Position numbers and translations under genes: made by a program. Positions 1-64,000 of a DNA stretch of 64,000 bases are shown here, in pieces. The stretch is from NCBI RefSeq assembly GCF_036365525.1, contig NC_090387.1, positions 76,135,300 through 76,199,299 on the forward strand, read 5' to 3'. Positions within the stretch are counted from its first letter, which is position 1. Every line of letters begins with the position of its first letter. A model generated the notes under the pieces. That model did not search any database. It was given only the letters and a program-made list of their open reading frames with translations, and was not told where the DNA came from. The stretch comes from Heterodontus francisci. Taxonomy: Eukaryota.

Positions 1-2089
1 CGTTATTCTCTATTACAGCTGAAAATGAGAGTCAATTTTTTAAAATAGTCGCTCCCTTGATGTAACCTATTTCATGTTGAGAGTGTGGTATACGGAGAGA
101 GATTTCTCCGGACCTTATCGATTTTATAATGATTAGCGCCAAAATCATAAATGGTTCACTCTACGACGTTCTCACAGAAGGAGCTCCATATCTCTGAAGT
201 TAATTACGTTTAACATTTAGCTGATATCGTGATAATTGCTTAGCATTTCAATTGTCAGAATCAGCCTGCCGAGGAATCGCTAAACACAGACATTGCAGAA
301 CAACTGCAGATATGTTTGGTTGCGAGATTTCAAATACATTTCTTAAATTATACTTCTTTTGAACGTCGAACATCGAACGCTAGCACTGTGCAACTTGCAT
401 GGCCTGAGGCGGGCGCAGCCACTAACCACAAAGTGTTTCCATTATGCCACTAGCAGAATCGCCTTGCAGTTCTATTCTCCCAGTGACTACAATTTCCCAT
501 TAGCTCAAACTACGAGTGCACTTTGTGGTAAATGATCAGCTAAATGAAGAAATCAGCTTCAAGATGAGATCTATTTTTTTATAGAAAAGTTGCACAAGTT
601 TACACATGAGCAACTGCAATCGCGTATTAGAAACTGAAATCTAAAATAGATGTCTCTGTGGCGAGAACCCTTCATCAGAATGGAAGATGTTTACAGATAG
701 GAAGCATTTAAAAAGGGGCAGAACAAATGGAAAGGGGAGGCAAACCCACACATAAAGACACCTACGCCGACACACAAACACTTACCATACAAGTCGCATT
801 TGTATAGCGCCTTCAAAGTAGTAAATTATCAAAAAGCGCTTCGTACAGAACATTAACAAACACATTTTAACACTGAACAATATAAGGTTCTGGTGACCAA
901 CAGCTTTTAAAGGAGGAAGGAGCAGCAGAGATATTTCGGGTTGGAATTCCAGAGATTCGGGCCTCGGCAGCTGAAGACACGGCCACCAATGTCGGAGTCA
1001 AGAAAATTGGGGTTGGACAAGAAGCCAGAATGCGAGTAGTATGGAGGGATTTGAAAACAAAGATGAGAATTTTAAACTAAAGGCGTTGCAGGACCCGGAG
1101 GCAGTGTAGGTCAACGAGCATGAGGAACGAATGCGACTTGGCGTGAGTTATATACACACATATGCATACACACAGACACACACATACACATACAAACTCA
1201 TACATGCACCCATTAAAAAAAAACTTCTATTAACTCTATGACTCATTATAGCACCTTTAATGATTCAGGAAATCCCAAAGCACTTTACAGCCAATTAAAT
1301 GTAATCACTGTTGTAATGCAAGAATACACATACGCACTCGCACACACCCATACACCAAAACACATGCAAATACATATGTACACCATGCACATATATGCAT
1401 ACACACACACACACAGATGGGAGAATGGTGGTATTTAAGTGGAAAACGGGATCATTTTCCTTCCTCGCTCACACAATATGTTTATTTCCATTCACTCTTC
1501 CCTTAGTTTCATTCCCATTTTATCTGCAACTTCCTGTTCGAATTGTCCAATCAGATTTCCACCCAAACATAGCTCCGAAATAACCCTAATCAAATTCGCA
1601 AATTGCATTTTGCAATGGCGACCTCATATCCGCTTCATTACAAAGACTGCCTACTACCACCTCTGTAACATTACCTGTCTTCACCCCACCTCAACCCTCT
1701 GCAGCAGAAACATTTATCGATGCCTTGTTGACTCCATTGTTGATCAATGGAAGCTCGTGGAAATAAAAATCCGAAGTAACGTAAAACAGGCTGCTGATCC
1801 ATTTACACCATTGCACATAGTCATGATCTACCCAATTACATAAATGTACTCCTAGCTGATCCCCTAACTCCCACCAACCTCCAATTTGCATAAACTTTAG
1901 CTCATCCAAAACACTGCTATCCATATCCTATCCCATATCAAGTTATGCTCACCCATCATCCCTCACCTGGCTGACCGACATTGGTTTCTCACATACCACC
2001 CCCCACCGCCTCCACCTTCCTCAGTGTCTCAAATTTAAGATTCTCACCCTCATTTAAATTCTTTCATGGCTTTGTGCTTCTCTATGTAG

Positions 2090-2672
2090 AACCATAGAAA
2101 AATTAATGCACAGAAAGAGGCCATTCAGCTCATCATGTCTGCATCAGCCAAATAAATTAGCCACCCCATCTAATCCCACCATTCAGCACCTGGTCCCTAG
2201 CCTTGCAGGTTACAGCACTTCAGGTGTATGTCCAGGTACCTTTTATATGAGTTGAGGGTTTCTGCCTCCACCACTGTTCCTGGTAGTGAATTCCGGATAC
2301 CCACCAGCCTCTGGGAGAAAAAGTTTTGCCTCATGTCCCGTCTAATCCTCCTACCAATCACCTTAAATCTATGCCCCCTGATAATTGACCTCTCCGCTAG
2401 GGGAAACAGGTCCTCCCTGTTTATCTAGGCCCCTCATAATTTTGTACAGCTCAATTAAGTCACCCCTCAGCTGCCTCTTTTCTAAGGAAAACAACCCTGA
2501 CCTCTCCAATCTTTCCTCATAGCTGCAACTTTCCAGTCCTGGCGACATTCTTGTAAATCTCCTCTGTACTCTCTCCAGAGCAATTATGTCCTTCATGTAA
2601 TGTGGTGACCAGAACTGTATGCAATACTCCAGCTGTGGCCTAACTGGCGTTTTATACAGTTCCAGCATTACA
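2090..2672 (-). mobile_element. CR1 3' fragment (paralog at ~57290-57830)
   Basis: ORF LEYCIQFWSPH..LERVQRRFTRM. Confidence 0.85.
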
Positions 2673-3383
2673 TCTCAGCAACTGCTCCAGCCAACAAACT
2701 CCCCCATCTCTCCACCATTCCCCTAACTGTGGAATGTTGTACATTTCCTGTTCCTTTGCCCATCATGCACTAAAATTCTCTCTCTAAACGTCTCTGCTTC
2801 TGCATTCTCTCTATATTAAGAATGTTGTTTAAAGCTACCTCTTCGATGAAGCTTCCTAATGCATCTTTCTTTGACTGGATGTGTTTTTATTTTTGGTTAG
2901 GCCTTTGGAAAACACTTTAGGATGTCTTCTTACTTTAAAGGATTTATATAAATATAAGTTATCATTTGTGTCTTCCTCTTTATTTTTCCAGTTCTGATGA
3001 AGGGTTATGACCAAACTATTAATGCATCCGTTCTCTTGGGAGATGTTTATCGACTCACTGAATATTTCCAACATGTTCTGTTTTACATTACAACGGATTA
3101 CATGGAGACCATTTGCACCAAATGGTCTATGCTGCTGTTTATGGCCTCATGGGCGTCACCCCACCCCTTTTCATCGATCCCTATCAGTATATCTAACTAT
3201 TTCTTTTTCCTTCATATGCTGATCAAGCTCCCCATTTGAATTAATCTATGCAATTCACCTCAACCACTCAATTTTCTACCCATTCGGTCAAAGTTTCTCC
3301 TGAATTTCCTCTTGGATTTATTTATGACCATCTTATATTTCTGCCCTCTAGTTCTGAACTCCCTCACAAGTTGAAACATTTTC

Positions 3384-5779
3384 ATGGAGTCATCGAGTTA
3401 TACAGCACAGAAAGAGGCCCTTTGGCCCACCGTGTCCACGCTGGCCATCAAGCCTCTCTATTCTAATCCCATTTTCCAGCAGTTGGCCCGTAGCCTTGTA
3501 TGCTATGGCGTTTCAAGCGCTCATCGAAATATGTCTTAAATGTTGAGTGGGTTCCTACCTCTACCACCTCTTCAGGCAATGTGTTCCAGATTCCAACCAC
3601 CCTCTGGGTGAAATATTTTTTCCTCAAATCCTCTCTAAACCTCCTGCCCTTACCTTAAATCTATGCCCCTTGGTTCTTGACCCTACCGCTAAGGGAAAAA
3701 GTTTCTCCCTATCGATCCTATCAATGCCCCTCATAATTTTATATATCTTAATCATGTTCCCCTCAGCCTTCTCTGCTCGAAGGAAAGCAGCCCTAGCCTA
3801 TGCAACCTCTCTTCATAGCTGAAATGCTCCAGCCCAGGCCACATCCTGGTGAATCTCCTCTGCACCCTTTTCAGTGCAATCACGTCCTTCCTGTAGTGTG
3901 GTGACCAGAACTGTACACAATACTCCAGCTGTGGCCTAACTAGCGTTTTATACAGCTCCATCATAACCTCCCTGCTCTTACATTCTATGCCTCGGCTAAT
4001 AAAGGCAAGTATCCCATATGCCTTCCTAACCACCTTATCTACATGTGCTGCTGCCTTCAGTGATCTATGGACAAGTACACCAAGGTCCTCTGACCCTTTG
4101 CATTTCCTAGGGTCCTATCATCCATTGCATATTCCCTTGACTTGTTAGTCCTCCCAAAATGCATCACCTCACACTTCTCAGGATTAAATTCCATTTGCCA
4201 CCGCTCCACCCATCTTACCAGCCCATCTATATCTTCCTGTAAGCTAAGGCTTTCCTCTACACCACCAATTTTCCTGCCATCTGTGAACTTACTGATCATA
4301 CCTCCTATATTCACGTCTAAATCATTAATGTATATTACAAGCAGCAAGGGTCCCAGCACCGATCCCTGTGGTACACTACTGGTCACAGGCTTTCACTCGC
4401 AAAAACAACCTTCAACCATTACCCTCTGCCTCCTGCCACTAAGCCAATTTTGGATCCAATTTGCCAAATTGCCCTGCCTCCCGTGGGCTCTAACCTTCTT
4501 AACAAATCTCCCATGCGGGACCTTATCAAAAGCCTTACTTAAGTCCATGTAGACTACATCAACTGCTTTACCCTCACCTACACATCGAGTCACCTCCTCG
4601 AAAAATTCAATCAAGTTGTTAGACAAGATCTCCCCCTGACAAAGCCATGCTGACTATCCTTGATTAATCCTTGCCTCTCCAAATGAACATTAATTCTGTC
4701 CCTCAGAATTTTTTTACAATAGTTTCCCTACCACTTAGACTCACTGGCCTGTAATTACCTGGTTTATCCCTGATACCCTTCTTGAATAATGGTACCATAT
4801 TCACTGTCCTTCAGTCCCCTGGTAACTCTCCTGTGGCCAGAGAGGATTTGAAAATTTGTGTCAGTTCCCCTGCTATCTCCTCCCTTGCCTCACATAATAG
4901 CCTGGGATGCATCTCATCTGGGTTTGGGATTTATCCACTTTTAAGCCCACTACAACTGCTAATACTTCCTCCCTTTCAATGCTAATTTTTTCAAGTATAT
5001 CACAATTCCCCTCCCTGATCTCTACACCTACATCATCCTTCTCCATAGTGAACACAGGTGAAAAGTAATAATTTAAAACCTCACTTATGTCCTCTGGCTC
5101 CACACACAGATTGCCACTTTGGTCCCTAATGGGCAGTACTCTTTCCCTAGTTATCCCCATGCCCTTAATATACTCATAAAATGCCGTGGGATGTTCCTTT
5201 ATCTTGCCTGCCAGTGTTTTTTCATGTCCCCTTTTCGCTCTCTTAATTACTTTTTTAAGTACCCATCTACACTTTCTATACTCCTCTCGGGCCTCTGCTA
5301 TTTTCAGTGCTCTGAATCTGCCATAAGCCTCCTTTAATTTCCCTATCCAATCCTCTATATCCCTTGACATCCAGGTTGTCCCTGGACTTGTTGGTCCTAT
5401 CCTTCACCTTTATGGGAACATTTTGGCCCTAAACTCTCACTATTTCCTTTTTGAATAACTCCCACTGGAATGATGTAGACTTTCTTACAAGTAGCTGCTC
5501 CCAGTCCACTTTGGCCAGACCCTGTTTTATCATATTGAAATCGGCCTTCCCCCAATTCAGTGCTTTTATTTTCGGTCCCTCTTTGTCCTTTTCCATAACA
5601 ACTTTAAATCTTACAGAGTTATGGTCACGATCCAGGAAACGCTCCCCAACTGACACTTCTACAACTTGTCTGGCTTCATTCCCTAGGATTAGGTCCAGTA
5701 CCGCCCCTTCTCTTATAGGACTTCCTCCGTGCTGGCTCAAAAAGCTCTCTTGTGTGCACTTTAAGAATTCCACCCCCTT
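3384..5779 (-). mobile_element. CR1 LINE (~2.4 kb) nested in an older CR1, present only in duplication copy 1
   Basis: Fragmented RT ORFs 3752-5773. The flanks gttgaaacattttc / ctatcaaacccgttc are almost contiguous at 58834-58874. Confidence 0.9.
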
Positions 5780-7554
5780 TATCTATCAAACCCGTTCATA
5801 ATTTCAAAGATCTCGGTCAAGTACCCCCTCAGCTTTTCCTTTTCCAGAGAAAAGAACCTCAGATTGTTCAGCCTTTCCTGATAAGTCTATCTTCTCAGTT
5901 CTGGTATTATCCTTCTGGATATTTTTGCACCCTTGCCAGTGCCTGTATGTCTCTTTCATCATATGGAAACTAGAAATGTGCACAGTGCTCCAATTGTGGT
6001 CTAATCAAGATTCAATACAAGTTTAACATAACTTTGCTGCTTTTTAATTCTATCCCTTTAGAAATTAACCCCAATACTTGGGTTACGCTCTCTGGCCTTA
6101 TTAACCTGCATTACCTGCTTTTAGTGATTCATGGATTTGTACTCCTAAATCGCTTTGCCCCTCTACCCCATTTAGACTCTTATTACCAAGCAGCATGTGG
6201 CCTCCTTACTCTTCCTACCAAACTGCACCACCTCACACTTATCTATATTGAAATTCAATTGTTAATTGCACACCCACTCAGCAAGTTTATTACTGTCTTC
6301 TTGTATTTTGTCGCATTTATCCTCAGTATTAATCATAGCCCCCATTTTGCTGTCACCACAAATTTTGGGTGTGCTACCGATTTCTGAGCTTTGGCTTTAG
6401 ATTTCCAGCGGTTCATTTTTTCTTTTTTTTTTGCGTGGTCATGATGCTGAGGCGGTGTGAGGCCAGGCTGACGAAGGCCTGCAGTGTTTCTGTGAAGCCG
6501 AAAGAGGCACCCTTGCTCTTTTCATCAGTTGAAATCGACAGCAAGGTGACATCGTTTTAAAATTAAAGCCAGTCGATTCAGGCGTGAATGGACACAAAGA
6601 CTCATAGAAATCTGGAACCCTCTCCCCAAAAGGCTGTGAATGCTTGGACAATTGGAGCTTTCAAGATTGAGATGGTAGATTTTTTTTTAGTTGATGGTAT
6701 CAAGGGATACAGAACGAAGGCAGGCAAATGGATTTGAGGTGCAGATCAGCCATGCTCTAATTGAATGACGGATCAGTGTCCAGGGGCTGAATGGTCTATT
6801 CCTGTTCTTATGGCATGGCTACAGAAACTATTTAAAACCCTTCCACCCCATTAACGCTAATTTTCCAAAGTAAAAATGTACCTTTGTTTCTCGGAATTTC
6901 ACGACTTTCTCACAGATATTACATTAGAGATCGGCAGACTTCTGCTCTAATTATCGGCTGTACATCTGTAGAACTGATTAACAGTACTGCAGATTAAACT
7001 GGGGTTTGAATTTTCTTGTGGGATGGTCAGCGCTAACCTCAGCGGTAAATCTGCGAATCCTTGGAGAAGTGCTGTCGACGGCATTTAGCCTGTTTCTCCA
7101 GGGTTTCCGTCAATATTTTGCCAAAGTTATTGCGGGAAATCGGTAGAAACCTCCGCAGAAAAAACACGCAGTCCATTTAACGTCATTACTATCCAATGGC
7201 GCCATTGTTCGTATTGCACAAACCACAATGTAAAGTCCTGGCATCCGTCTTATTCATCAGCCATGTCTACAAATGCACTGGACTTCATATCCAGTTGAGA
7301 AAGCACATTCTAAATGTCAAATAGCTTTAAATTTGTTGAATTATGGAAGTGTTTTGGGCAAAATCATCAGACAATTGATAAGAAAGCATTGCATTCATTT
7401 TGGTGGGAGCGATGCATTGCGCACTGCCCGATTATAGAGCGACTGACTGCTGATAACCTCAGTGTGAAGGTTGCATTCTCGAATAGGCAGGTGTGCGCGT
7501 GAGGGGGCGGGGTTGCTGCTCCAAATCTTCGGGCACTGGTGCAATTGCTCAGAT

Positions 7555-7830
7555 GAGGAGGATCAGTGGGATAAGTTCAGCACTTCTTGGAAAAGGCCGG
7601 TCATTAAAGAAGTCCACAGAGGAGGTTTCAAGGAAATCATTGATCCGAGCACCAAAGAAAGAGTCATTGATCCGGTCCTTAGAAGAGATCCACTGATCAG
7701 GTAACGGAGGAAGTCACTAATCAGATCCCCCCCCCCCCCCATTAAAGGGGCATTAAGTTCCTAAAGGAGATTCATTCATCAACGCCTTTGACAAGAGTCG
7801 TTGACCAGATCTCGAGAGGACAGTGCCCAG
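7555..7830 (+). repeat. Degenerate ~25-bp repeat (gagtcattgatc core) after a GC box; paralog at 60640-60880
   Basis: Recurrent tcattgatcc/cactgatcag/cactaatcag/cgttgaccag; gggggcgggg at 7503-7512. Confidence 0.5.
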
Positions 7831-9623
7831 AAAATATGTTACTTTTATCATTCAAGCAAGTACTCCAGGGCAGAGAATATTAACAACAATTAAAGTAAAG
7901 GAAGCATGGGGCAATGGTGTAAGTGGGGGTTATTGATTTTCCCGTCCCTTATACACCAGCCCGATTTTCATTTACTTCAATCGAAAGGAAAATCAGGCAC
8001 GGCTAATTCAGCATCAATTAATTCACAGCATCGCCCAAGGTTAAAATTACCTCCATGGACTCGAAAGTCCGCTGAATTTTAACGAGAAACAATTTCATTT
8101 CCCATAATCTTACCGCTGATACCAAGGACATAAGTTATCACTTTGTTTCAAATGCATTGCACTGAAAATCTTTTATTGAGTAGACTCCATGATGATACAA
8201 ACAGAAATAACAGATTCCAGAAAAACGTTGGCACACGACATGATGGGTTGGATTTTCCACATGCTGCCCGGACGGTTTATATAAAAAAGGCTGATTCGTA
8301 ATGCCAGTTTAGCCCTGAGTGGCAAATTGAAAAAACTCTCTCAAATGTTCCACGATGCAATTAATACCCGCAGTATATTGTACATCGCAATTATTAATTT
8401 CAACACAACTCGGCTCAAGTTTTTTTGCATATCAAATCTTCGTTAGAAATTTATGTTGTTTTGAACAGGCCAAAGCATAGTAAACGCATTGAAACTTTTT
8501 CCTTTCAGGCTGCCAACTTGCTGTCACCGTTTTAAAAGATCTACCCTGCTAATCCTTGTTTTTATTAATTCAATCACAACTGATATCCAGGTTGAATGCC
8601 ATCATTATTAAAAGTTTATTTCTGTGATTTTAAGCAGAAGCTCGGCTCCCACAGTTTGCAAAAAATGTCCATGTTGCGATAAAATCAAAATTGTAATAAT
8701 TGTAATCCAGCCCGTGGAGGCTGACAGTACAACTATTTTATCTAGTTACACAATGCTACAGGAAACATGGGGCTAGATCTTGACTTTGTACGACAGTGCA
8801 AAATGGATGATAGTGAGTCGGCAGCCAGTTTTACATCTCTCCCCATTTTTATTCCCATTGACCTGTACTCCCATTGAAATAAAACTTGGGAGAGATATAT
8901 AAAGTGATGCCAACACCCATTTTACGCTATATCACAAAGTAAAAATCGATCTCGATCGTACTTGAAAGTCATAATGCGTACAGAAAACCAGTCTTACAAT
9001 TTCCTTGGAGACAAAGAAATCTTCCGCACAGTTTGTCATATTCCAGTCAGTTGTTTACCGCATGACCTGCTAAAGAAGCACAACCCTCCACACTGGCGTA
9101 ATTTAAGCAAGATGCTGCAGATGCTGGAAATCGGAAATAAAAACATAAAGTGCTGGAAATACTCAGCAGGTCAGGCAGCATCTTTGGATAGAGACACTGG
9201 CGGTTGATTGAATTACTGATTACGTTGATCAATTACGACTATCCCCCAGATCCACCAATATTACCCACCCTTTCCCAGATGTACCGATAAGCTTCGCTTC
9301 AATGCCTGCAGTGCACGCTGAGATCTTGCCCAAATGGATAACCTGTAAGGGCAAGTCTAGACAGGAAAGGTTATAAAATCCTCCTGGGCGATTGCGAATT
9401 ATTTTTGAATTCTGCCTGATTCGCTTTTCCACAATGAAAACAACAAATCGGACGCGATGGCCCGAATCATGCTGCTGTCATTATGTTAGTAGGATTTTGA
9501 ACAAAAGGGAGGTGGACATCACAGCCAAACATTATCCTAAACTCCAGACATGAAGTCTTTCCGAAGGAATCACTGATAAAGATCGGATGTTTGACCTAGC
9601 TGATTCCACACCCCGTTGTCAAA

Positions 9624-9946
9624 GGCCGCACAGTCGTGCAGTGGCTAGCACCGCAGCCTAACAGCTCCAGTGACCCGGTTTAGGTTCTGGGCCTGTGCAA
9701 ACTTTATTAGTTCTCCCTGTGGGTTTCCTCTGGGTGCTCTGGTTTCCTCCCACATGCAGGTTGTTAAGTAAATTGGCTGTTGTAAAAATTGTCCCTAGTA
9801 GGTGGTAGGAGAGAATTGGGGGAAGGTGGGGATGTGAGAGGGGAAAATGAGATTAATGTAGGATTAGTATAAGGGTGGCTGATGGTCAGCGCGGACGCGG
9901 TGGGCCGAATAGCCTCTTTTGGTGCTGTATCTCTCTTAATCTCTAA
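9624..9946 (+). mobile_element. HE1-like V-SINE, copy 1-specific
   Basis: Same structure as 57829-58174 but more decayed; absent at ~62720. Confidence 0.82.
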
Positions 9947-10447
9947 AATAACGGAGCAGGCATCTACTTCCCCCTGCAAAATTAGTTCATTAAGCATCGT
10001 CCTGGGATGGAATCGGAGATCTTCCTACTGTACCTACAGCCATTGACAACAAGACTGTTGGCTATGTTTAACCAGAAAATGTATTTGTTTCGACCTTTAA
10101 CAAGTTTATCAGGTTATCCCCTGTCTAATAATAGCAGGATCATCAGCGCAATTCATTTTACCGATAAGCATGGATAAATCAGGTTATCAATAAACAAACA
10201 TCTGGCAGGTTGATTCGATTGATCTTTGCGGACACGTTTTCTGGGCACCCTGGCCGAAACGTGAAATCTGGTTCTGAATATTTTGCTGAATTGCTCAATT
10301 TGTATTGACCAAGCTGAACAGTCCGGAAAATGCACAGTGCGGAGGGAGGTATCTGCTCTCGCTTGGTGTAGCCAAATCAGGGACACTATTACAATATCCC
10401 CAAACAAACATCAGAACAATTATTCCTCATTTGAAGCAGCTTGAGGG

Positions 10448-10860
10448 CCAGCCGTGGCTCAGTTGGTAGTACTCTGCTTCTGTGGTAGATAGTTGTGAGT
10501 TCAGTTCTCGCTCCAGGACTGGAGTACGCAAATCGAGGCTGATGCTCCATACCGAGGTGCCGTCTTTCGGATGAGAAATTAAATCGAGGCCCTTCTGCTC
10601 TTTAGGGTGGATGTAACAGATCCCATAGTACTATTTTGAAGAACAGGGTAGTTATCCCTGGTGCTCTGGCCAATATTTATCCCACAAAACAGATTGCCTA
10701 GTCATTATCACATTGTTGTTTGTGGGATCTTGCTGCGCGCAAATGAGTTGCCGCCTTTCCTACATTTCAAAAGTGACTACACTTTAAATGTACTTCCTTG
10801 GCTGTAAAGCGCTTTAGGAAGTCTCGTGGTCGTGAAAGGCGCTATATAAATGCAAGTTCT
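10448..10860 (+). mobile_element. Deu-SINE (SacSINE1-like); paralog at 63278-63790
   Basis: tRNA head gtggctcagttggtag and Deu core gaggtgccgtctttcggatgaga..ttaaatcgaggccc; 3' end ggcgctatataaatgcaag. Confidence 0.78.
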
Positions 10861-11282
10861 TTACAAAATTGCTTCCAAACAACAATTGGCCCGATAACCA
10901 GACGGTGGGTTTTTACTCTCGTTTAATAACCTGGGGGAAATTACCTCTGGTTGCTATTTCTAGTGAAATCTTAAATAGCGTCTTTTAAACACTTCCACTA
11001 TTTTCCTAGAACATGGAAATCCTCCAAATTTCTTCGCAACGTTGCGAATCGATAATGATCAGAGGAGATCAGAGTCATTTGTGAGGAGATATAAATGACA
11101 GAACTTTGGACCAGCTATTGCCCCGAAATAATATCCGATTACTTTCAACGTGGATAAATGTCCACCTTCAAAGAACATTCATTTTCATCATCTATCAGTG
11201 AACGTGACGTTATTTGCTCATTTACAATAAAGATTTGATCTGCAAAGCGGCGATGCACTCTGGTAATAAACGTATTTCTCAC

Positions 11283-11397
11283 CTTTGACAGTACCTCCGC
11301 TTAAAATAATTCCTAACGATGACAATCAGCACCATTATTATCAATATACCCACTAACTGCCGGGACAACAAAAAGAGGGTAGCAACGTTAGCAGCAC
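11283..11397 (-). pseudogene. Gene B TM exon
   Basis: GAANVATLFLLSRQLVGILIIMVLIVIVRNYFKRRYCQ, donor AAG|gtgaga. The acceptor reads tgtcg instead of tgtcag. Confidence 0.75.
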
Positions 11398-11699: not shown

Positions 11700-11997
11700 C
11701 TTCAAAGTTGCAATTGACATTGGCTGGAGTCTGAAGAGAGACATGACACACTTGGCAGCTGTATGTAGCTCCAATGTGGGATGGCGCCGTATCTTTTATA
11801 ATTCTGCAAATCTCATACAGTCCCACTCTGGTTTGCTGTTTAGTAGTATTGATCCCGGTTCCAATTTTTGTGTTATTCTTATACCAAGTCACATTGAGAT
11901 CTTCAGGGTAAAACTTAGCTGTTTTACAGGAGAATCGGAGAAGTGGATAGACGGAATTCAGACTCAACTAAGTCGATCCTCAGAGGAGTGGGCAGAA
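11700..11997 (-). pseudogene. Gene B C1 exon, frameshifted
   Basis: VLPTPLRIDLVESEFRLST/+1/LRFSCKTAKFYPEDLNVTWYKNNTKIGTGINTTKQQTRVGLYEICRIIKDTAPSHIGATYSCQVCHVSLQTPANVNCNFE. 298 nt versus 297 in gene A; donor gtatgg. Confidence 0.88.
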
Positions 11998-15030: not shown

Positions 15031-15351
15031 CGGCCACAAGGAGCTGTGAGCCGGTTCCATTCCCAAACATTCCTCCCCGGCAGTACACGGAGCAGTAATA
15101 GCGGCCAGAATCTTTGAAGCTTACATTCCAGAGATGGATGGTGGCTCCTCCTTTTTTCAGAAGTTTATACTGTCTCTTGCTCGCTTCTCCGTCGTTTAAG
15201 AACTCGTCATCACCATGTCGCTACCACTGAACCTTTACAACTAATTCATCTTGAAAGACGGGGAATGTGCAGTGGAAGGTGATGTTGGCTCCTCTGAGCG
15301 CAACTTTGATTGGAGGGTTTTGCCCCACTGTGGATTCGCCAACAGAAAGCC
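15031..15351 (-). pseudogene. Gene B VJ-type exon with nonsense codon
   Basis: LSVGESTVGQNPPIKVALRGANITFHCTFPVFQDELVVKVQW*RHGDDEFLNDGEASKRQYKLLKKGGATIHLWNVSFKDSGRYYCSVYCRGGMFGNGTGSQLLVA, donor gtaagt. Shares RGANxxxxCTFP and the WW position (now W*) with gene A. Confidence 0.9.
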
Positions 15352-25652: not shown

Positions 25653-25781
<129 letters not shown>

Positions 25782-53385: not shown

Positions 53386-56260
53386 GTTTGGTGGTGGGGG
53401 TGGAGGGGGGGGGGGGTGGTGGGTGGGGTGATTGGGGCTGGGGGTCCCTTTTAGGTGAGAGAAATGATTGGCGGGTTATAAGGGACAGAGAGGGATATTA
53501 TGTAAACTTTGGGACAGACTCAATATTCTCTTCCTTTCCTCTATATTGGTATGTTTTTAAATCCACCGAAGACTACTACAGTGGGTTATTCATTTTAACA
53601 CAATTTGAAACAGACAATTTAAAATGAAGAAATACACAATTAACTAACAGGATATGCAAATAGATCACATCAATCATAAATAAATAGTTTTGCCTTTAAT
53701 TTTAATGTAAGTAGTTATTTTGATAGTTTAGGGATGATATTGCAGCAATAAAGCCACTCCTGAGCAGTTTTATTCCAAAGTACTGATGAAGGCCTCCATT
53801 CCTGGAGGTTTCTTTTCACAAAGAGATAATAAACAATGGGTTTCTCTGTCTCTTCAGGTGGACACAAAAGATCTCATGACACATAAAGTTCTCCTGCTTT
53901 TCTGACCAACATTGTTCCCTCAACCAGCATTACTATCTACAGATTATCTGGTCTTTTATTTCATTGCTCTTTGTGTGACCTCTCAGTTTGCTAACTTCCA
54001 GCTTTTTTTCTCTATATTACAACAGTGACAACACTTCAAAAGTAAAACATTTGGAACGTCTCAATGTGAAAAGCGCATTACATATACTGTTTATCTTTTT
54101 TATATTGCTGTTATCTTGCTGTGTGTAAATTTGCTTCTAGTTTTTCTTATTTCAAAGGCAATCAGTATGAGGTGCGTTGGGACATTTCATAAGCGAGGTA
54201 ATGAGGTGTTATAAATGAATGTAAGTCGTTCTTTCTCTCATCATAGTGGCATATCGGAAACCCTGCAAACTTGATGGGAATTTGGAATTTACCAAGCATA
54301 ACTGGAAGGAATAAATATTATACATATTATTAGGATGGGTGAGTCACGGGGTCATCGTTAGTGTTACAGGATTAAGCTGCAAAGTTATTTTCCACGGAAA
54401 ACCACTTCACAATGTAAATCTAGAGCCAGGACTCAACAGGAATCCAGAACAATGGATGGGACTTCCACTTCTGGGTCTTGAGTTCCAGGCGATTTGACAT
54501 CACTGTCCTTTACACAGCACCTTCAGGACTGTGGCAGGCAGCTATGCTACATGAGGACATTGGTAGTGGCCCGTTGTTTGCCTTCTTTTTACAGAAAGTA
54601 ACTGTCTAACTGAAAAGGAGAGATACGGACCTTATAGCACGATCCCGCATCATATTGCTGGTGCTCTGGCCAATATTCATCTCTCAACCAACTTCACTAA
54701 AACAAGTTGTTTGGCCATTATAATGTTGCTGTTTGCGGAACGTTTCCTACATGACAACAGTGACAACACGTCAAAAGTACTTAATTAGCTGTAAAGCACT
54801 TTGGGACTGCAAACCGTCGTGAAATGTACTTACAGGTTCTTTTTTCTTTTTTTCTTTCGCTAATTTTACTAGTGCTATTTTGTTTTATAGCAAGGCCATC
54901 TATCTATTCAAATATATAATCTAATATACTGGATGACATTACTTATAATGAGATGTTTTTGAACAATAACGTTATTCTCTATTACAGCTGAAAAGGAGCG
55001 TCAATTTTCAAATGATCGCTGCCTCGATGTAACCTGTTTCATGTTGAGAGTGTGGTATACGGAGAGAGATTTTTCCGGACCTTATCGATTTTGTCCTGAT
55101 TACCGCCAGAAATCATAAATCATAACTCTACGGCGTTCTTACAGAAAGAGCTCCATATCTCTAAAGTTAATTATCTTCAACATTGACATTTAGCTGATAT
55201 CGCGATAATTGCAAAGCATTTCAGTTGTCAGAATCAGCCTGTCGGGGAATCGCAAAACACGGACATTGCAGAACAAAGACAGAAATGTTTGGTTGCGAGA
55301 TTTCGAATACATTTCTGAAATTATACTTCTTTTGAACGTCGAACCAGGTAACGCAGGCACTGTGCAACTTGCATGGCCTGAGACGGGCGCAGCCACAAGC
55401 CACAAATTGTTTCCATTATGCCACTAGCAGAATCGCTGTGCAGTTCTATTCTCCCAGTGATAGCAATTTCCCATTAGCTCAAACTACGAGTGCACTTTGT
55501 GGTAAATGTTGAGCTAGCTGAAGACATCAGCTTCAAGATGAGATCTATTTATATAGAAATGTTGCAAAAGTTCACACTTGAGCAACTGCAATTGCGTATT
55601 ACAAACAGAAATCTAAAATAGATGTCTCTGTGGCGAGAACCCGTCATCTGATAGGAAGCATTTAAAAAGGAGCAGAACAAATGCGAAGGGGCGGCAAACC
55701 CACACATAAAGACACTCACACAGAAACACAAACACACACCATACAACAAGTCGCATTTGTATAGCGCCTTCAAAGTAGTAAACGATTAAAAAGAGCTTCA
55801 TACGGAACATTAGCAAACAAATATTAACACGGAACAACGTAAGGTCCTGGTGCCCAACAGCTTTTAAAGGAGGAAGGAGTAGCAGAGATATTTCGGGTTG
55901 GAATTCCAGAGCTTAGGGCCTCGGCAGCTGAAGACACGGCCACCAATGGCGGAGCGAAGAAAATTGGAGATGGACAAGAAGCCAGAATGCGAGGAGGGCC
56001 AAGGCCATGGAGGGATTTGAAATCAAAGATGACAATTTTAAACTAAAGGTGTTGCAGGAACCGGAGGCAGTGTAGGTCAACGAGCATGAGGAATGAATGC
56101 TACTTGGCGTGAGTTATATACACACACATACATACACGCATTCAGACATATACACATAAGCACACACAGACGCACACATAGACATTCATACACGTTCACA
56201 TATACACACATACACATACAAACTCATACATGCACCCATTAAAAAGACTTGTATTTATAT

Positions 56261-56702
56261 AAAGAGGTTGAGTAGATTAGGATTATTTTCATTAGAAAGA
56301 CGGAGGTTGAGGGGGGACCTGATTGAGGTGTACAAAATCATGAGAGGTATAGACAGGGTGGATAGCAAGAGGCTTTTTCCCAGAGTGGGGGTTTCAATTA
56401 CTAGAGGACACGAGTTCAAAGTGAAAGGGGAAATGTTTAGGGGGGATATGCGTGGAAAGTTCTTTACGCAGAGGGTGGTGGGCACCTGGAACGCATTGCC
56501 AGCGGAGGTGGTAGATGCGGGCATGATGGAGTCTTTTAAGATGTATCTAGACAGATACATGAATGGGCAGGAAGAAAAGAGATACAGAACCTTAGAAAAT
56601 AGGCGACATGTTTAGAGAGAGGATCTGGATCGGCGCAGGCTTGGAGGGCCGAAGGGCCTGTTCCTGTGCTGTAATTATATTTGTTCTTTGTTCTCTTTGT
56701 TC
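56261..56702 (+). mobile_element. CR1 3' fragment, same subfamily as 31672-32943, present only in duplication copy 2
   Basis: Highly similar to the reverse complement of 31672-32108; absent at the homologous site ~1230-1258. Confidence 0.88.
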
Positions 56703-57828
56703 TTTAATGATCCAGCAAGTCCCAAAGCACTTAACAGCCAATGAAGTGTAGTCACTGTTGTAATGCAAGAATACACACACGCACTCGCGCACACATCTAT
56801 ACAGACCCACAAACACCAAAACACATGCACACTCATACATACACCATGCACATATATGCATACACACACACAGATGGGAGAATGGTGGTGTTTAAATGGA
56901 AAATGAGATCATTTTCCTTCCTCGCTCACACAATATGTTTATTTTCCCTTCACTCTTCCCTTCATTCCATTCCCATCTTATCTGCAACATGTTGCAAATC
57001 CATTTTACACCATTGCACATAGTCATGATCTACCCAATTACACAAATGTACTCCTAGCTGAACCCCCAACTCCCACCAACCTCCAATTTGCATAAACTTT
57101 AGCTCATCCAAAACTCTGCTGCCCATATCCTATCCCGTATCAAATTCTGCTCACCCATCATCCCTATGCTGGCTGACCGACTTTGGTTTCTCACATCCCA
57201 CCCCTCTTCCCCTCCACCTCCCTCAGTGTCTCAAATTTAAGATTCTCATACTCATTTAAATTCTTTCGTGGCTTTGTACTTCTCTATCTAGAACCATAAA
57301 ACCATAGAAAAATTACGACACAGAAAGAGGCCATTCAGCCCATCGTGTCTGCGCCGGCTGAAAAAACTAGCCACCCAATCTAATCCCACCATTCAGTACC
57401 TGGTCCATAGCCTTGCAGGTTACAGCACTTTAAGAGCATGTCCACCTAACGTTTGTATCAGTTGAGGGTTTCTGCCTCCTCATCTCCCGTCAAATCCTTC
57501 TACTAATCACCTTAAATCTGTGCCCCATGTTAATTGACCTCTCCGCTAGGGGAAACAGATCCTTCTTGTCCACTCTATCTAGGCCCCTCATAATTTTGTA
57601 CACCTTCATTAAGTCACCCCGCAGCCTCCTCTGTTCTAAGGCAAACAACCCTTGCCTATCCAATCTTTCCTCATAGTTGCAATGTTCAAGCTCTGGAAAC
57701 ATTCTTGTAAATCTCCTCTGCACTCTCTCCACAGCAATTATGTCTTTCGTGTACTGTGGTGAGCAGAACTATATACAATACTGCAGCTGTGGTGTAACCA
57801 GCGTTTTATACAGTTTCAGCATTACATC

Positions 57829-58174
57829 TCAGCACAGTGGCGCAGTGGTTAGCACCGCAGCCTCACAGCTCCAGGGACCCGGGTTCGATTCCGGGTACTG
57901 CCTGTGTGGAGTTTGCAAGTTCTCCCTGTGTCTGCGTGGGTCTTCTCCGGGTGCTCCGGTTTCCTCCCACAAGCCAAAAGACTTGCAGGTTGATAGATAA
58001 ATTGGCCATTATATAAATTGTCACTAGTATAGGTAGGGAAATATAGGGACAGGTGGGGATGTTTGGTAGGAATATGGGATTAGTGTAGGATTAGTATAAA
58101 TGGGTGGTTGATGTTCGGCACAGACTCGGTGGGCCGAAGGGCCTGTTTCAGTGCTGTATCTCTAATCTAATCTA
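57829..58174 (+). mobile_element. tRNA-derived V-SINE (HE1-like), copy 2-specific
   Basis: Box A tggcgcagtgg, box B ggttcgattcc, V-domain ctccgggtgctccggtttcctcccaca, (tctaa)n tail; absent at ~2675. Confidence 0.88.
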
Positions 58175-61100
58175 ACTGCTCCAGCCAACAACTCCCCCAT
58201 CTCTCCACAATTCCCCTAACTGTGGAATATAGTACATTTCCTGTTTCTTTGTTCACCAGGCACTAATATTCTCTCTCTAAACATCTCTGCTTCTGCATTC
58301 TCTCTCTATTTAGATTGTCGTTTAAATCCACCTCTTCGATTAAACCTTTGGTTTCTCCTTCCTAATACAACTTTCTTTGACTGGATGTATTTTTCTTTTT
58401 GGTTAGGCCTTTGGAAAACACTTTAAGATATCTTTCTACTTGAAAGGTTTTATATAAATATAAGTTACCCTTTGTGTCTTCCTCTTTATTTTCCAGTTCT
58501 GATGAAGGGTTATGACCAAACTATTAACTTATCTGTTCTCTTGGGAGATGTTTATCGACCCACTGAGTATTTCCAACATGTTCTGTTTTACATTACATAG
58601 AATTACATGGAGACCATTCGTCTCCCACCCATTTTCATCTATCCTTATCAGCATATCCTTCTATTTCTTTTACCTTCATATCCACATCAAACTCCCACTT
58701 TAAATATATCTATGTCATTTACCTCAACTACTCACTTTACTACACATTCGATAAAGGTTTCTCCTGAATTCTCTCTTGGCTATATTTATGACTATCTTAT
58801 ATTTCTGCCCTCTAGTTCTGGACTCCCTCACAAATTGAAACATTTTCTCCAGGTCTACTCTATCAAACCCGTTCATAATTTCAAAGACCTCAATCAGGTT
58901 CCCCTTCAGCTTTCCCTGTTCTCGAGAAAAGAACCTTAGACTGTTCAGCCTTTCCTGATAAGTCTATCTTCTCAGTTCTGGTATTATCCTTGTGGATATT
59001 TTTGTACCTTTTCCAGTGTCTGTAAATAACTTCCATAATATGGAAAGTAGAAATGTGCACAGTGCTTCAAATGTGGTCTAATCAAGATTCAATACAAGTT
59101 TAACATAACTTTGCTGCTTTTTAATTCTATCGCTGTAGAAATTAACCCCAATACTTGGCTTACTTTTTCTGGCCTTATTAATCTGCATTACCTGCTTTTT
59201 GTGATTCAGGGATTTGTATTCCTAAATCGCTTTTTCCCTCTACCCCGAATAGACTCTTATTATCCAAGTAGTATGTGGCCTCCTTACACTTCCTATCAGA
59301 CTGCACCACCTCACACTTTCAATTGCTAATTACACACCCACTCAGCAAGTCTATTATTGTCTTCTTGTATTTTGTCGCATTCTTCCTCAGTATTAATCAT
59401 AGTCCCCATTTTGGTGTCACCACAAATTTTGGTTGTGCTATCGATTTCTGAGCTTTGGCTTCAGATTTCCAGCAGTTTATGTTTTATTTTTATTTTTTGC
59501 GTGGTCATGATGCGGAGGCGGTGTGAGGCCAGGCTGGCAAAGGCCTGCAGTGCTTCTGTGAAGTCTAAAGAGGCACCCTTGCTCTTTCCAGCAGTTGAAC
59601 TCTACAACAAGGTGACATCAATTTAAAATTAAAGTCAGGCTATTCAGGAGTGAAACCAGGAAACACCTTTTCACAGGAAGGCTCATAGAAAGCTGGAACA
59701 CTCTTCCCAAAAGGCCGTGAATGTTTGGACAATTGGCGCTTTCAAGACTGTGATGGTAAATTTAAGTTAGTTAACGGTATCGAGGGAAACAGAACGAAGG
59801 CAGGTAAATGGAGTTGAGGTGCAGATCAGCCATGATCTAATTAAATGACGGATCAGGGTACAGAGGATGAATGTTTTATTCCTTTCGTTATGGCATGGCT
59901 ACAGAAACTATTTAAAACCCTTCCATTAATGCGAATTTTCCAAAGTAAAAATGTACCTTTGTTTCTCGGAATTTCATGGCTCTCTCACAGATGTTACATG
60001 GGTGATCGGCAGACCCCTGCTCGAATTATTGGCTGTACATCTGTAGAACCGATTCACAATGCTGCAGTTTAAACTAGGGTTTGAATTTTCTTGTGGGATG
60101 GTCAGCGCTAACCGCAGCGGTAAATCTGTGAATCCCTGGAGAAATGCTGTCGATGGCACTTAGCCTGCTTCTTCAGGGTTTCCGTCAATGTTTTGCCAAA
60201 GTTATTGCGGGAAATCGGTAGAAACCTCCGCAGAAAATCCACCCAGTCAATTTAACATCATTACTATCCATTGGTGGCATTCGTCGCATTGCATAAGCTA
60301 CAATGTCAACTCCTGGCATCTGTCAGCCATGTTTAAAAATGCATTGGACTTCATATCCAGTTGAGAAAGCACATTTTTAATTTCAAAATGCTTTTGACTT
60401 ATTGCATGATGAAAATGTTTTGAGAAAAATCATCAGACAATTGATGAGAAACCATTGCATTCATTTTGATGAGAGCGGTGCATTGAGCACAGTCCGGAGC
60501 ATCGAGCGACTGTCTGCCGATGTCCTCAGTGTGCAGCTTATTTTCTCGAAGAGGAAGGTGTGTGCGTGAGGGGGCGGGGTTGCTGCTCCGCATCCCAGCA
60601 TTTAATACGTATCTTCGGGCACTGGTGCAATTGCTCAGATGAGGAGGACCAGTAGGATACGTTCAGCACCCCTTGGAAAAGGAGGGTCATTAAAGAAGTC
60701 CTCAGAGGAGTTTCCTAGGAGTCATTGATCCGGTCCTTAGAAGAGATTCACTGATCAGGTAACGGAGGAAGTCACAAATTATATCGCCCCCCGCCCCCTC
60801 CCCATAAAAGGGGGATTAAGCCCCTGAAGGAGATTCATTCATCAACGCCTTTGAGAAGAGTCGTTGACCAGGTCTCGGGAGGCCAGTGCCCAGAAAATAT
60901 GTTACTTTTATCACTCAATCTAGTACCCCAAGGCAGAGAATACTAACAAAAATTAAAGTAAAGGAAGCACGGGGCAATGGTGTAAGGTGGGGGTTATTGA
61001 ATTGGCTGTCCGTTATATACCAGCCCGATTTTCATTTACTTCAATGGAAAGGAAAATCAGGAGTGGCTAATTCAGGATCAACCAGTTCACAGCATCGCCC

Positions 61101-64000
61101 AAGGTTAGAATAACCTCCATGGTCTCTGAAGAACCGTTGAGTTTTAACCAGAAAAAATTGTATTTCCCACAATCCTACTGCTGATACCAAGCACTTAATT
61201 CAAATAATCACTTTGCTTACCATGCATTGCACTGAAAATCTTTTATTGAGTATATTCCATGATGATACAAACAGAGATAACCGACTCCAATAAAAAGCTG
61301 GCACGCGACATGATGGGCTGGATTTTTCAAATGCTGCCTGGACGGTTTATATAAAAACGGCTGATTCGTAATACCAGTTTAGCCCTGAGTGGCAATTTGA
61401 AAAACTCTGTCACATGCTCCATAATGAAGTTAATACCCTCAATATATTGTACACTGTAGGTACTAATTTAAACACAGCGGGGCTCAAGTTTTCTTGCATC
61501 TCCAATCTTCATTAGAAATTTATGCTGTTTTGAACAGGTCAAAGCTTATTCATAGTAAACGCATTGAAACTTTTTCCTTTGAGAAGAAAATGAGTAGAGG
61601 CGCTATCGTGGAAAACCGCTGATAACAAGGTGGCAGCCCATGTTACAGCTCACCGAAATATTTATTGCCATCGACTTCAATGGGGAGAGATATAGACCAG
61701 ACTGTCAACTCGCCATCACCCGTTTTACAAGATCTACCCGCCATTCTTTGTTTTTATTAATTTAATCATAACTGATATCCAGGTTGAATGCCATAATTAT
61801 TAAATGTTTATTTCGGTGATTTTAAGAAGAAGCTCGGCTGCCAAAGTTTGCAAAAAATGTCCATGCTGCGATAAAATCAACATTGTAATAATTGTAATAC
61901 AGCCCGTGGAGGGTGACAGTACAACTATTTTATCTAAATACCCGATGCTACAGGAAACATGGTGCTAGATATTGACTTTGTACGACAGGGTAAAATGGAT
62001 GATAGTAAGTCGGCAGCCCATTTTACATCTCCCCCCATTTTTATTCCCATTGACCTGTACACCCATTGAAATAAAACTCGGGAGAGATGTAAAAAGTGAT
62101 GCCAACACACTGTCACCTATTTTACATTATCTCACAAAGTAGAAATCTACCCCATCTTACATTGAAACTCATAACCTGCAGAGAAAACAATTTCCTTGGA
62201 GACAAAGGAATCTTCCGCACAGTATGTCATATTCTGTCAGCTGTTTCCTGCATGACCTGCTAAAGAAGGGCAACATTCAATACTGACTGTTGTTTGAATT
62301 ATTGATTACGTTGATAAATTGCTACTGGCCCCCACTCCCACCAGTCTTACCCGTCCTCTTCCTTCAATACGCGCAGTACACTCTCCGAGTAGATAACTTT
62401 CAAGTGCAAGTCTAGACAGCAATGCGTATAAATTCCTCCTGGGCGGTAGTGCAAAACTGACGATAGCGAATTAATTTTGAATTCTGCCTGATTCGCTTTC
62501 CCACACTGAAAATAGCACATCGGACAGAGCGTAAAACGCGCCGCCGATTCACGATGGCTCGTATCATGCTGCTGTCCCTATGTCCGGAGGATTTTGGACT
62601 CAAGGGAGGGAGACATCACAGCCAAAGACTAAACTAAACTCCACACATGAAGTCTTTCCGAAGGAATCACTGATAACGATCGGGAGTTTGACCTGGCTGA
62701 TTCCACCCTTCCGAGTCAAGAACTACGGAACAGGAATCTACTGCCCCACCTGCAAAATCAGCTCATTCAGCAAATCCTAGGATGGAATCTGAGAATTTCT
62801 TACTCTGTACATACAGCCTTTGACAACAAGACCATTGGTTATTGGCTATGTTTAACCAGAAACAGATTGGGAAATGTATTTGTTTCAACCCTTAACGAGT
62901 TTATCAGGTTATTCCCTGTCTAATAACAGCAGGATCATCAGCGCAATTCATTTTGTTGGTAAGCATGGATAAATCAGACTCCAATCCAACTTATAGGTGA
63001 TCAATAAACAAACATCTGGTAAATTGATTCTATTGATCTTTGCGGACACATTTTCTGGGCACCATGGCCTAAACGTAAAATCTGGTTCTGAATATTTTAC
63101 TGAATTGCTCAATGTGCATTGAAAGCTGAAGAGTCCGGATAACACACAGTGCGGAGGGAGGTATCTGCTCTGGCTTGGTGCAGCCAAATCGCGAACATTA
63201 TTTAACAAAAATGCATTTAGAATACCCCCAAACAAGCATCAGAAAAATTCTTCCTCATTTGAAGCAGCTTGAGTGCCAGCCGTGGCTCAGTTGGCCGTAC
63301 TTTGTTTCTATGATACAAGATTGTGGGTTCGCATCACACTCTGGGACTGGAGTGCACAAATCTAGACTGACATTCCATGCAATACTGAGGGCTGCTGCAC
63401 TATCTGAGGTGCCGTCTTTCGGATGAGACATTAAATCGAGGCCCTTCTTCTCCCTAAGGTGGCTGTAACAGATCCCATGGCACTATCTTGAAGAAGAGCA
63501 GGGGGTTTATCCCTTGGTGTCCTGCCCCATATCCATCCCACAAAACAGATTGCCTGACCATTATCACATTGCTGTTTGTGGGATCTTACTCCGCTCAAAT
63601 TGGATCCAGCCTTTCCCGCATTAGGAAAGTGACTAGACTTTAGATGCACCTCTGGAATTAAAACAAGAAATGCCTTTCTTGTTTTTATTTCAGATTTCCA
63701 GCATCCGCAGTATTTTGCTTTTACTTTAGATGTACCTCATTGGCTGTAAACGCTTTAGGAAGTCCCGTGGTCGTGAGAGGCGCTATATAAATATGCAATA
63801 ATTGGCCCGATAACCAGGCGGTTGGATATTTACTCTCGTTTAATAACTGGGGGAAATTACCTCTGGTTGCTATTTCTAGTGAAATCTTAAATAGCTTCTT
63901 TTAAAACACTGCAACTATTTTCCTAGAACATGGAAATCCTCCAAATATCGTCGCAACGTTGCTAACTCACAGTGACCAGATGAGATCAGTGTCCTTTGTG

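What the first reader, a model, noticed from the sequence alone, without database searches (positions are those of the whole stretch)
1..64000. ~53-55 kb tandem duplication predicts a repeating receptor cassette
Seen: 1-11083 recurs at 54970-64000 in direct orientation, ending 200 bp short of the gene B TM exon homolog. Inference: a gene B paralog begins at about 64200, and if the unit is fully tandem a gene A paralog lies roughly 9 kb left of the window. The unit would be [activating gene - NUDT21 fragment - inhibitory gene], co-amplifying the pair.
Basis: partly seen in the sequence, partly recalled or inferred. Interest (0 to 1): 0.7.

Follow-up and report, generated by a model that had tools for sequence, protein, structure and literature searches.

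The report
Old decaying shark immune-receptor tandem array
The repeat is real and is part of an old, roughly 470-kb shark array in which a block holding the tail end of a housekeeping gene and two antibody-like immune receptor genes was copied about eight times; several likely inhibitory receptor copies remain readable, while six of the seven likely activating copies are broken and the seventh is spliced into a form without its membrane anchor, which makes this likely ordinary gene birth and death rather than amplification of a working on/off pair.

Summary
Observation confirmed: window 1-11083 recurs at 54970-64000, direct, about 8 kb aligned at 83% identity. Both predictions hold: a gene B paralog's TM exon lies at 64,197-64,351 and a gene A paralog at -26.3 to -11.5 kb. 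The true unit is [NUDT21 exons 5-7, gene A, gene B]. It starts inside intron 4 of the single intact NUDT21, which lies 33-50 kb left of the window. All 4 junctions examined share one breakpoint with a 4-nt microhomology, so one founding duplication was likely multiplied by unequal crossing-over. The array has 8 A, 7 B and 5 NUDT21-fragment copies, about 13% diverged and often partly deleted. A is a VJ-C1 receptor with an uncharged TM and ITIM-like tail; B has an Arg-bearing TM and a short tail. The 'co-amplified pair' reading is only partly right. A and B share just ~41% V identity. Six of 7 B copies, both window-linked ones included, are pseudogenes, and B7 is spliced without its TM exon. A's look-alike Arg-TM partners lie ~800 kb away. 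Verdict: birth-and-death of a shark SIRP-like receptor family with a hitchhiking gene fragment.

The parts
1..11083 (+). First copy of the in-window repeat: spacer between A1 and B1 plus the 3' end of B1 (part of unit 1, which starts at -40,357)
54970..64000 (+). Second copy: spacer between A2 and B2 plus the 3' end of B2 (part of unit 2, 25,253 to ~82,675)
9036..9066 (-). Gene B1 last coding exon (about 10-residue tail, no tyrosine motif); its copy in unit 2 lies near 62,250
   Evidence: homology to the spliced last exon of B7
11283..11397 (-). Gene B1 TM exon with an Arg near the outer end of the hydrophobic stretch; splice acceptor reads CG, not AG
11700..11997 (-). Gene B1 C1-set exon; acceptor reads TG and a 2-nt deletion shifts the frame
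   Evidence: Pfam C1-set E=3e-9; alignment
15031..15374 (-). Gene B1 joined V-J exon; 7-nt deletion at the main acceptor and in-frame TAG at 15,221-15,223
15519..15558 (-). Gene B1 leader exon
20488..22859 (-). Young RTE-type LINE inserted near the end of unit 1
22859..25253 (.). Unit 1/2 junction: an old CR1/L2-type LINE fragment (split by a later LINE at 23,254-24,722) cut off at ~25,250 and joined to NUDT21 intron 4 sequence through a 4-nt microhomology (TTGT)
25698..25773 (+). NUDT21 exon 5 copy (fragment N1); open frame, AG/GT intact
28537..28651 (+). NUDT21 exon 6 copy (N1); open frame, AG/GT intact
   Evidence: PF13869 match
30122..30143 (+). NUDT21 exon 7 copy (N1), coding part up to the stop
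34475..34597 (-). Gene A2 last coding exon; a 15-nt deletion destroys the LTYAAL-type ITIM, the distal AVYAEV motif remains
35354..35446 (-). Gene A2 tail exon c2b with two in-frame stops; skipping it keeps the frame
35797..35889 (-). Gene A2 tail exon c2; an 18-nt deletion removes the TAYATL-type motif
37285..37328 (-). Gene A2 tail exon c1
38897..39001 (-). Gene A2 TM exon, uncharged, with a Cys at its outer end
42870..43166 (-). Gene A2 C1-set exon, intact
   Evidence: Pfam C1-set E=8e-8
45375..45677 (-). Gene A2 joined V-J exon with a J-like GxG motif, intact
   Evidence: Pfam V-set E=8e-10
45890..45944 (-). Gene A2 leader exon

Best explanation
The repeat belongs to an old tandem array of a ~60-kb block [NUDT21 exons 5-7, receptor gene A, receptor gene B] that likely arose once by a microhomology-mediated join and was then likely multiplied and trimmed by unequal crossing-over, leaving mostly likely-inhibitory A genes and dead or anchor-less B genes. 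Shown: the unit's borders, one shared junction in 4 of 4 junctions examined, 8 A / 7 B / 5 N' copies with their lesions, splicing of A8 (V to C1), and splicing of B7 without its TM exon. Inferred: A proteins are germline VJ-C1 surface receptors that damp immune cells by recruiting SHP-type phosphatases to their tyrosine motifs. B was a short-tailed receptor signalling through an ITAM adaptor by way of its TM arginine, and B7 now works mainly as a secreted V-C1 protein, possibly a decoy. Selection kept A ectodomains (A1, A2, A8) and B7's, and let the other B copies and the NUDT21 fragments decay, so the NUDT21 piece is a passenger.
For: Unit borders -40,357 and ~424,165, and one junction shared at 25,253, 82,680, 231,658 and 301,937. 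At the natural right end the LINE runs on past the break while the NUDT21 side does not match it, and the two sides overlap in TTGT. Only one NUDT21 N-terminal match exists among 10 PF13869 matches, all on this stretch. Star-like unit trees with end branches of about 0.06 and one later duplication; K2P 0.10-0.19 over 25 pairs. Lesions per copy. Nonsynonymous changes observed vs neutral expectation: A1 16 vs 30, A2 12 vs 30, A8 11 vs 29, B7 11 vs 30 (P 0.005 to 5e-5); A4 29, A5 27 vs 30; NUDT21 fragments 33 vs 38 (P=0.22). RNA contigs match A8 at 31 of the 31 exonic differences checked. They join B7's C1 to its last exon past the TM exon in 2 of 3 runs, giving a 236-aa TM-less protein; NCBI models of 236 and 224 aa exist for this gene, and the 224-aa one, which I read, also lacks the TM. 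Relatives in other sharks and rays show the same two TM/tail types.
Against: No signalling, adaptor or ligand was tested; 'inhibitory' and 'activating' rest on motifs. The RNA evidence is 3 runs of one sample, contigs only, with RNA status a guess and low depth on B7, so a minor membrane form (an in-frame downstream AG exists) is not excluded; the NCBI models may rest on the same data. The AG/CG state of B's TM acceptor does not follow the unit tree (each sister pair has one of each), so its history is unclear. Pooled B pseudogenes show fewer amino-acid changes than neutral (102 vs 135, P=0.002), so some B copies probably did work for a time after duplication. NUDT21 fragments show an unexplained synonymous excess (28 vs 14.5; omega 0.30), and N1 in the window is fully intact. 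The selection test assumes a star tree and rates from one intron. Later insertions at both natural ends could hide an older LINE-LINE crossover.
Confidence: 0.8

Rival explanations
1. One reading: selection amplified a linked activating plus inhibitory pair to keep their dosage balanced.
For: A and B were copied together in one unit. B pseudogenes carry a trace of past purifying selection. B has an Arg TM and a short tail, A has tyrosine motifs.
Against: 0 of 7 B copies is a canonical membrane receptor today, while 4 of 8 A copies keep an open leader-V-C1-TM. Units 3, 6 and 7 lost parts independently. A and B are only ~41% identical in V, and A's look-alike Arg-TM genes (V 90-94% and 79% identical to the intact A copies) lie outside the array.
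Confidence: 0.1
2. The NUDT21 exon 5-7 copies are functional alternative 3' ends of NUDT21 (variant CFIm25 C-termini), and they are part of why the array persists.
For: The copies face the same way as the intact gene and lie downstream of it. N1 keeps an open frame and all splice sites. Omega among fragments is 0.30 [0.17-0.57] vs 0.82-0.92 in non-coding controls.
Against: The low omega comes from excess synonymous change, not from missing amino-acid change (33 vs 38 expected). N3 and N4 lost the exon 5 acceptor, N5 lost exon 5 and is frameshifted, and exon 7 was found in only 3 of 5 fragments. N1 lies 72 kb from exon 4, beyond the gene's own last exon.
Confidence: 0.05
3. The repeat is a recent, copy-number-variable segmental duplication or an assembly duplication.
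For: A tandem direct repeat in an immune gene cluster.
Against: 83% identity, copy-specific transposons and deletions, no Ns. The closest long unit pair is still only 90-92% identical.
Confidence: 0.02

Closest known systems
SIRP family (SIRP-alpha inhibitory, SIRP-beta activating via DAP12; PMC3533184, passages read)
   Same: Joined V-J type domain followed by C1-set, inhibitory members with tyrosine motifs, short-tailed charged-TM members. NCBI names most paralogs SIRP-alpha-like. SIRP-alpha is the best immune hit among solved structures (E=1e-9).
   Different: One C1 instead of two (SIRP V-C1-C1 recalled). Arg rather than Lys in the TM (Lys in SIRP-beta recalled). The locus lies beside AMFR-NUDT21. 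Ig light chains score almost as well as SIRP-alpha (E=2e-9).
Paired receptor clusters evolving by birth and death (KIR, LILR including soluble LILRA3, PILR; PMC3533184 passages; Xenopus FcR-like family PMC2413239, search listing only)
   Same: Tandem duplication, many pseudogenes, opposite signalling types in one cluster, a soluble member.
   Different: The co-duplicated A and B are not look-alikes. True look-alike pairs lie 570-820 kb further right. The copies are old (~13% diverged).
Non-rearranging VJ genes: PRARP, NKp30/NCR3, UrIg (named in PMC10751288, PMC12227049, PMC11599192, passages read; primary PRARP and shark NCR3 papers not held)
   Same: A single germline V-J exon with a GxG motif; VJ-C1 layout as stated for UrIg and recalled for PRARP; an Arg TM as recalled for NKp30.
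   Different: NKp30 has no C1 (recalled). UrIg has several C domains. Those genes are tied to the MHC or its paralogons, and this array sits by AMFR-NUDT21. Orthology to PRARP was not tested.
Passenger gene fragments in duplicated gene-family units (general pattern, recalled)
   Same: A breakpoint inside a housekeeping neighbour copies promoter-less 3' exons into each unit, where they decay.
   Different: Here one fragment (N1) still has an open frame and intact splice sites after ~12% intron divergence.

Membership tests
Paired receptors (A with B) | Very similar ectodomains (definition in PMC3533184) | tested here: not met
   A vs B7: V 39-45%; A vs B C1 31-45%
Paired receptors (A with B) | One ITIM-bearing and one charged-TM, short-tailed member | tested here: met
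   A8 tail has TAYATL, LTYAAL and AVYAEV; B's TM exon has Arg and a ~15-aa tail; motifs only
Paired receptors (A with B) | Both members expressed as membrane proteins | tested here: not met
   6 of 7 B copies broken; B7 contigs skip the TM exon in 2 of 3 runs, none shows it spliced in; low depth
Paired receptors (wider cluster) | Near-identical ectodomains with opposite TM/tail types | tested here: met
   V identities: 637k/814k 96%, 673k/715k 99%, intact A copies/864k 90-94%; Arg TM in the 637k, 673k, 835k and 864k genes, uncharged TM plus Tyr motifs in 715k and 814k
SIRP | V-C1-C1 ectodomain (recalled) | tested here: not met
   One C1 exon per gene between V and TM
SIRP | Inhibitory member with uncharged TM and ITIM tail | tested here: met
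   A8, A1; eroded in A2
SIRP | Activating member with TM lysine for DAP12 (DAP12 from PMC3533184; Lys recalled) | tested here: not met
   The charged residue is Arg
SIRP | Specific sequence affinity or orthology to SIRP | tested here: inconclusive
   SIRP-alpha E=1e-9 vs Ig light chains 2e-9; no tree with SIRP was built
SIRP | CD47 binding | not testable with these tools
   no assay
NKp30/NCR3 | Single VJ domain without C1 (recalled) | tested here: not met
   C1-set exon present in A and B
PRARP | VJ-C1 layout with inhibitory tail (recalled); orthology | not tested
   The layout fits, but the paper is not held and no PRARP sequence was compared
Recent segmental duplication (>=90% identity, recalled convention) | >=90% identity over >=1 kb | tested here: not met
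   83% for this pair
LINE-LINE non-allelic homologous recombination as founding event | Homologous LINE copies at both natural breakpoints | tested here: not met
   A LINE runs through the right break only; the sequence left of -40,362 does not match it; 4-nt microhomology

The most novel reading that the evidence does not exclude
The array acts as a V-swapping and decoy-making platform for germline antibody-like receptors. Deleting one gene's V exon lets an upstream, unrelated leader+V exon splice onto its C1 and inhibitory tail (X-V at 122 kb onto A3, as in NCBI model P0013), long-range splicing may link V exons to tails of several units, and loss of TM acceptors turns activating genes into secreted V-C1 decoys. 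That would be combinatorial receptor diversity without RAG in a shark.
Probability: 0.12. Interest if true: 0.7.

Novelty: new member of a known kind. Interest (0 to 1): 0.36.

Why it matters
As a duplication it is ordinary: immune receptor clusters grow and decay this way. Its value is a clean, mappable record of how a little-described shark family of non-rearranging VJ-C1 receptors evolves (48 V matches on one contig; relatives in sharks, rays and chimaera). There was one founding junction, a burst of copies, survival of inhibitory-type genes, loss of activating-type copies, one turned secreted, and one apparent V swap. This fits the idea that inhibitory receptors are the stable members and activating ones are short-lived, and it names concrete genes (A8, B7, the X-A3 chimera, the 864-kb partner) for a first functional test in a cartilaginous fish.

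Tried and rejected
Assembly artefact and recent CNV: rejected (divergence, copy-specific insertions). LINE-LINE crossover as the founding event: not supported. Constraint on NUDT21 fragments: low omega dissolved into a synonymous excess with a neutral number of amino-acid changes. A second C1 exon (SIRP layout): none found. OGFOD1 synteny: the PF10637 search rang nowhere, controls included, so it is uninformative. Expression of the window's own A2: no RNA holder on record was listed, and the exonic contigs I could assign match A8, not A2; this says nothing on whether A2 is silent. A B-type ortholog in other sharks: only B7's own model was found among 41 candidates; best V identity among fetched proteins was ~50%, which is weak evidence. 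Pfam scan of 110 non-repeat ORFs (all 86 from the two gaps, 24 of 87 listed from the right flank) found no further Ig gene in the gaps. Dating: end branches of ~0.06 divided by the epaulette shark rate (7e-10 per generation, CI 1.4-14.1e-10; PMC10587355 passages) give over 40 million generations, too loose to date. Literature: 9 searches found no description of this locus; four relevant papers (PRARP 2019, primordial immune complex 2019, shark NCR3 2021, Dornburg and Yoder 2022) were not held, so prior description is not excluded. No supplements were read. No structure or complex prediction was run.
Full report
Coordinates are window coordinates; negative numbers and numbers above 64,000 lie outside the window on the same contig. 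The window is G000:C17:76,135,300-76,199,299. I fetched 200 kb to its left and 1,000 kb to its right. Proteins that match this region at 100% are labelled Heterodontus francisci (horn shark) by NCBI, on a contig of the same length.

1. Observation. The stretch 1-11083 recurs at 54970-64000 in direct orientation. Eleven near-collinear HSPs cover 8,209 and 7,957 bases at 83% identity, with offsets of 52.8-55.5 kb; the gaps are transposon insertions. The match ends only because the window ends. Gene B2's TM, C1 and V exons follow at 64,197, 64,625 and 71,530, and gene A1 spans -26.3 to -11.5 kb.

2. The unit. The one intact NUDT21 lies on the + strand at about -50 to -30 kb. It is the only place with the N-terminal half among 10 PF13869 matches, all on this stretch. 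The C-terminal motif of AMFR lies at -151.7 kb on the - strand. After masking repeats, homology to unit 1 restarts at the same base, -40,357 in NUDT21 intron 4, at 25,253, 82,680, 231,658 and 301,937, and the last unit ends beyond gene B7. The unit is therefore [NUDT21 exons 5-7 (+), gene A (-), gene B (-)], 65.6 kb for unit 1 and 57.4 kb for unit 2. All 4 junctions aligned are the same join. An old CR1/L2-type LINE fragment from the array's natural right end is cut at ~424,165 and fused to intron 4. At the natural end the LINE runs on, the intron side does not match it, and the two overlap by TTGT. I infer one microhomology-mediated founding duplication, then unequal crossing-over. Unit trees are star-like, with end branches near 0.06 and one later duplication. 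Non-coding divergence is 0.10-0.19 over 25 pairs.

3. Array content. In order: NUDT21, A1, B1 | N1, A2, B2 | N2, A3, then a different leader+V exon X at 122 kb and ~90 kb without Ig exons, B3 | N3, A4, B4 | A5, B5 | N4, A6, A7, B6 | N5, A8, B7. Four units keep all three parts in order. Gene A: A8 is complete. A1 is open but lacks two tail exons (NCBI model P0002). A2, in the window, has intact leader, V, C1 and TM exons with AG/GT ends, but an 18-nt and a 15-nt deletion remove two tyrosine motifs and one tail exon has two stops. A4 has a stop in the tail. A3 lost its V exon by a 547-bp deletion, A5 its leader, A6 its C1, and A7 is a tail only. Gene B: B1 in the window has a 7-nt deletion and a stop in V, a dead acceptor and a frameshift in C1, and a CG TM acceptor. 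B2, B3 and B5 have frameshifts or stops in V; B4 and B6 lack all or most of V. B7 alone has an open leader, V and C1.

4. What the genes are. V exons are V-set (E=8e-10) with a joined J-like GxG end, and C exons are C1-set. A has an uncharged TM and, in A8, the motifs TAYATL, LTYAAL and AVYAEV. B's TM exon has an Arg near its outer end, and its last exon would give a tail of about 15 residues with no signalling motif. The A V domain has 48 matches among 96 candidates in the genome, all on C17. A profile search gave 57 proteins; the 55 named ones are all from sharks, rays or chimaera, with machine names (SIRP-alpha-like, B7-H6-like, TAPBPL-like, light-chain-like). Of 10 weaker hits looked up from the 150 listed, 6 were chondrichthyan, 1 coelacanth and 3 frog. 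SIRP-alpha is the best immune match among solved structures but barely beats Ig light chains.

5. Is it a pair? A and B share 39-45% in V, so they fail the definition of paired receptors as very similar ectodomains with opposite signals (PMC3533184, passages read). Real look-alikes lie right of the array. The 864-kb gene has a V 90-94% identical to A1, A2 and A8 and an open Arg-TM exon, though NCBI's model skips it. The 835-kb gene (V 79%) also has an Arg TM. The 637k/814k and 673k/715k genes pair an Arg TM with an uncharged TM plus tyrosine motifs at 96% and 99% V identity.

6. Expression. Three coded runs (one sample, contigs, RNA status guessed) were laid. On A2, one contig joins V to C1, and all 31 exonic differences checked match A8; 2 of these are shared by all paralogs, and 384 further differences were not shown. 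On B7, contigs in 2 of 3 runs join leader to V, V to C1 (a full form and a frameshifted short form), and C1 to the last exon directly or through a small extra exon; none splices in the TM exon. The full form is a 236-aa protein without anchor. NCBI lists 236- and 224-aa models for this gene; the 224-aa one, which I read, ends the same way. They may rest on the same data.

7. Selection. Against a neutral model from the unit's own intron, amino-acid changes are depleted in A1, A2, A8 and B7, not in A4 or A5, mildly in pooled B pseudogenes (102 vs 135), and not in the NUDT21 fragments (33 vs 38). The fragments have an unexplained synonymous excess (28 vs 14.5), which drives a low omega. N1 in the window is the only fragment with exons 5-7 all open and spliceable. 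The test assumes a star tree and a majority-rule ancestor.

8. Mechanism. Most likely (0.8): birth-and-death evolution of a germline-encoded immune receptor family, with NUDT21's 3' end as a passenger. A copies would act as inhibitory receptors through SHP phosphatases (inferred from motifs); A2 would be a weakened version. B would have signalled through an ITAM adaptor (inferred from the Arg TM, by recalled analogy with NKp30); most copies died, some after a period of function, and B7 is likely secreted. Rivals: balanced co-amplification of a working pair (0.1), functional alternative NUDT21 ends (0.05), recent CNV or artefact (0.02).

9. Novelty. The process is well known. Nine literature searches found no account of this locus, but four key papers were not held. 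Earlier notes of this scan already describe the family from other windows; they agree, and are not independent support. The boldest reading left open is V swapping: NCBI model P0013 joins X's leader and V to A3's C1 and tail, and consecutive isoform numbers X1-X3 suggest that NCBI files it and A1, 100 kb away, as one gene (inference). I did not test this with reads. Score: interest 0.36, new member of a known kind.

Noticed in passing
window coordinates 91,339-122,693 (L023-L026): Apparent chimeric gene: A3 lost its own V by a 547-bp deletion, and NCBI model P0013 splices the leader and V of an unrelated family member (X, 42% to A's V) onto A3's C1, TM and tail. X has no C1 of its own nearby.
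   Followed up: partly
L055:2042-7652 (window coordinates 406,042-411,652): B7 transcripts skip the TM exon (acceptor CG); a cryptic donor inside V gives a frameshifted form; a second V acceptor adds 12 residues.
   Followed up: yes
TM acceptors of B1-B7: AG in B2, B3, B5 and CG in B1, B4, B6, B7; each sister pair of the unit tree has one of each, suggesting gene conversion or recurrent change.
   Followed up: no
window 34,559 and the matching sites in A5 and A6: The same 15-nt deletion removes the proximal ITIM in A2, A5 and A6, although A2 does not group with A5/A6 in the tail tree; recurrent deletion between short GC repeats or conversion.
   Followed up: partly
window 25,698-30,143: NUDT21 fragment N1 keeps exons 5-7 open with intact splice sites; the fragments as a group show twice the expected synonymous change.
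   Followed up: partly
window coordinates 483,000-882,000 (L062-L102): Further VJ-C1 genes, including three look-alike Arg-TM / uncharged-TM sets (637k/814k, 673k/715k, A/864k) and an A-like gene at 835k whose leader I did not find.
   Followed up: partly
G000:C17 70.9-71.0, 88.4-90.8 and 92.5 Mb: Further clusters of the same V family on the same contig.
   Followed up: no
window coordinates -151,700 to -30,000 (L005-L017): AMFR (-) and NUDT21 (+) appear head to head; in human they lie in tandem on one strand (recalled), so NUDT21 may have been inverted in one lineage.
   Followed up: no
window 20,488-21,932: RTE-type LINE 99.7% identical to an inverted copy at 318,209-319,654: recently active element.
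   Followed up: no
L030:9142-9843 (window coordinate ~163,100): ORF with an IBR domain (PF01485, E=1e-6) in the gap of the array, perhaps an RBR E3 ligase fragment; an integrase zinc-binding remnant lies at L030:127-843.
   Followed up: no
protein P0192 (coelacanth): V-C1-TM protein with a tyrosine-motif tail ending in a TVYAEI motif like gene A's; candidate bony-vertebrate relative of the family.
   Followed up: no
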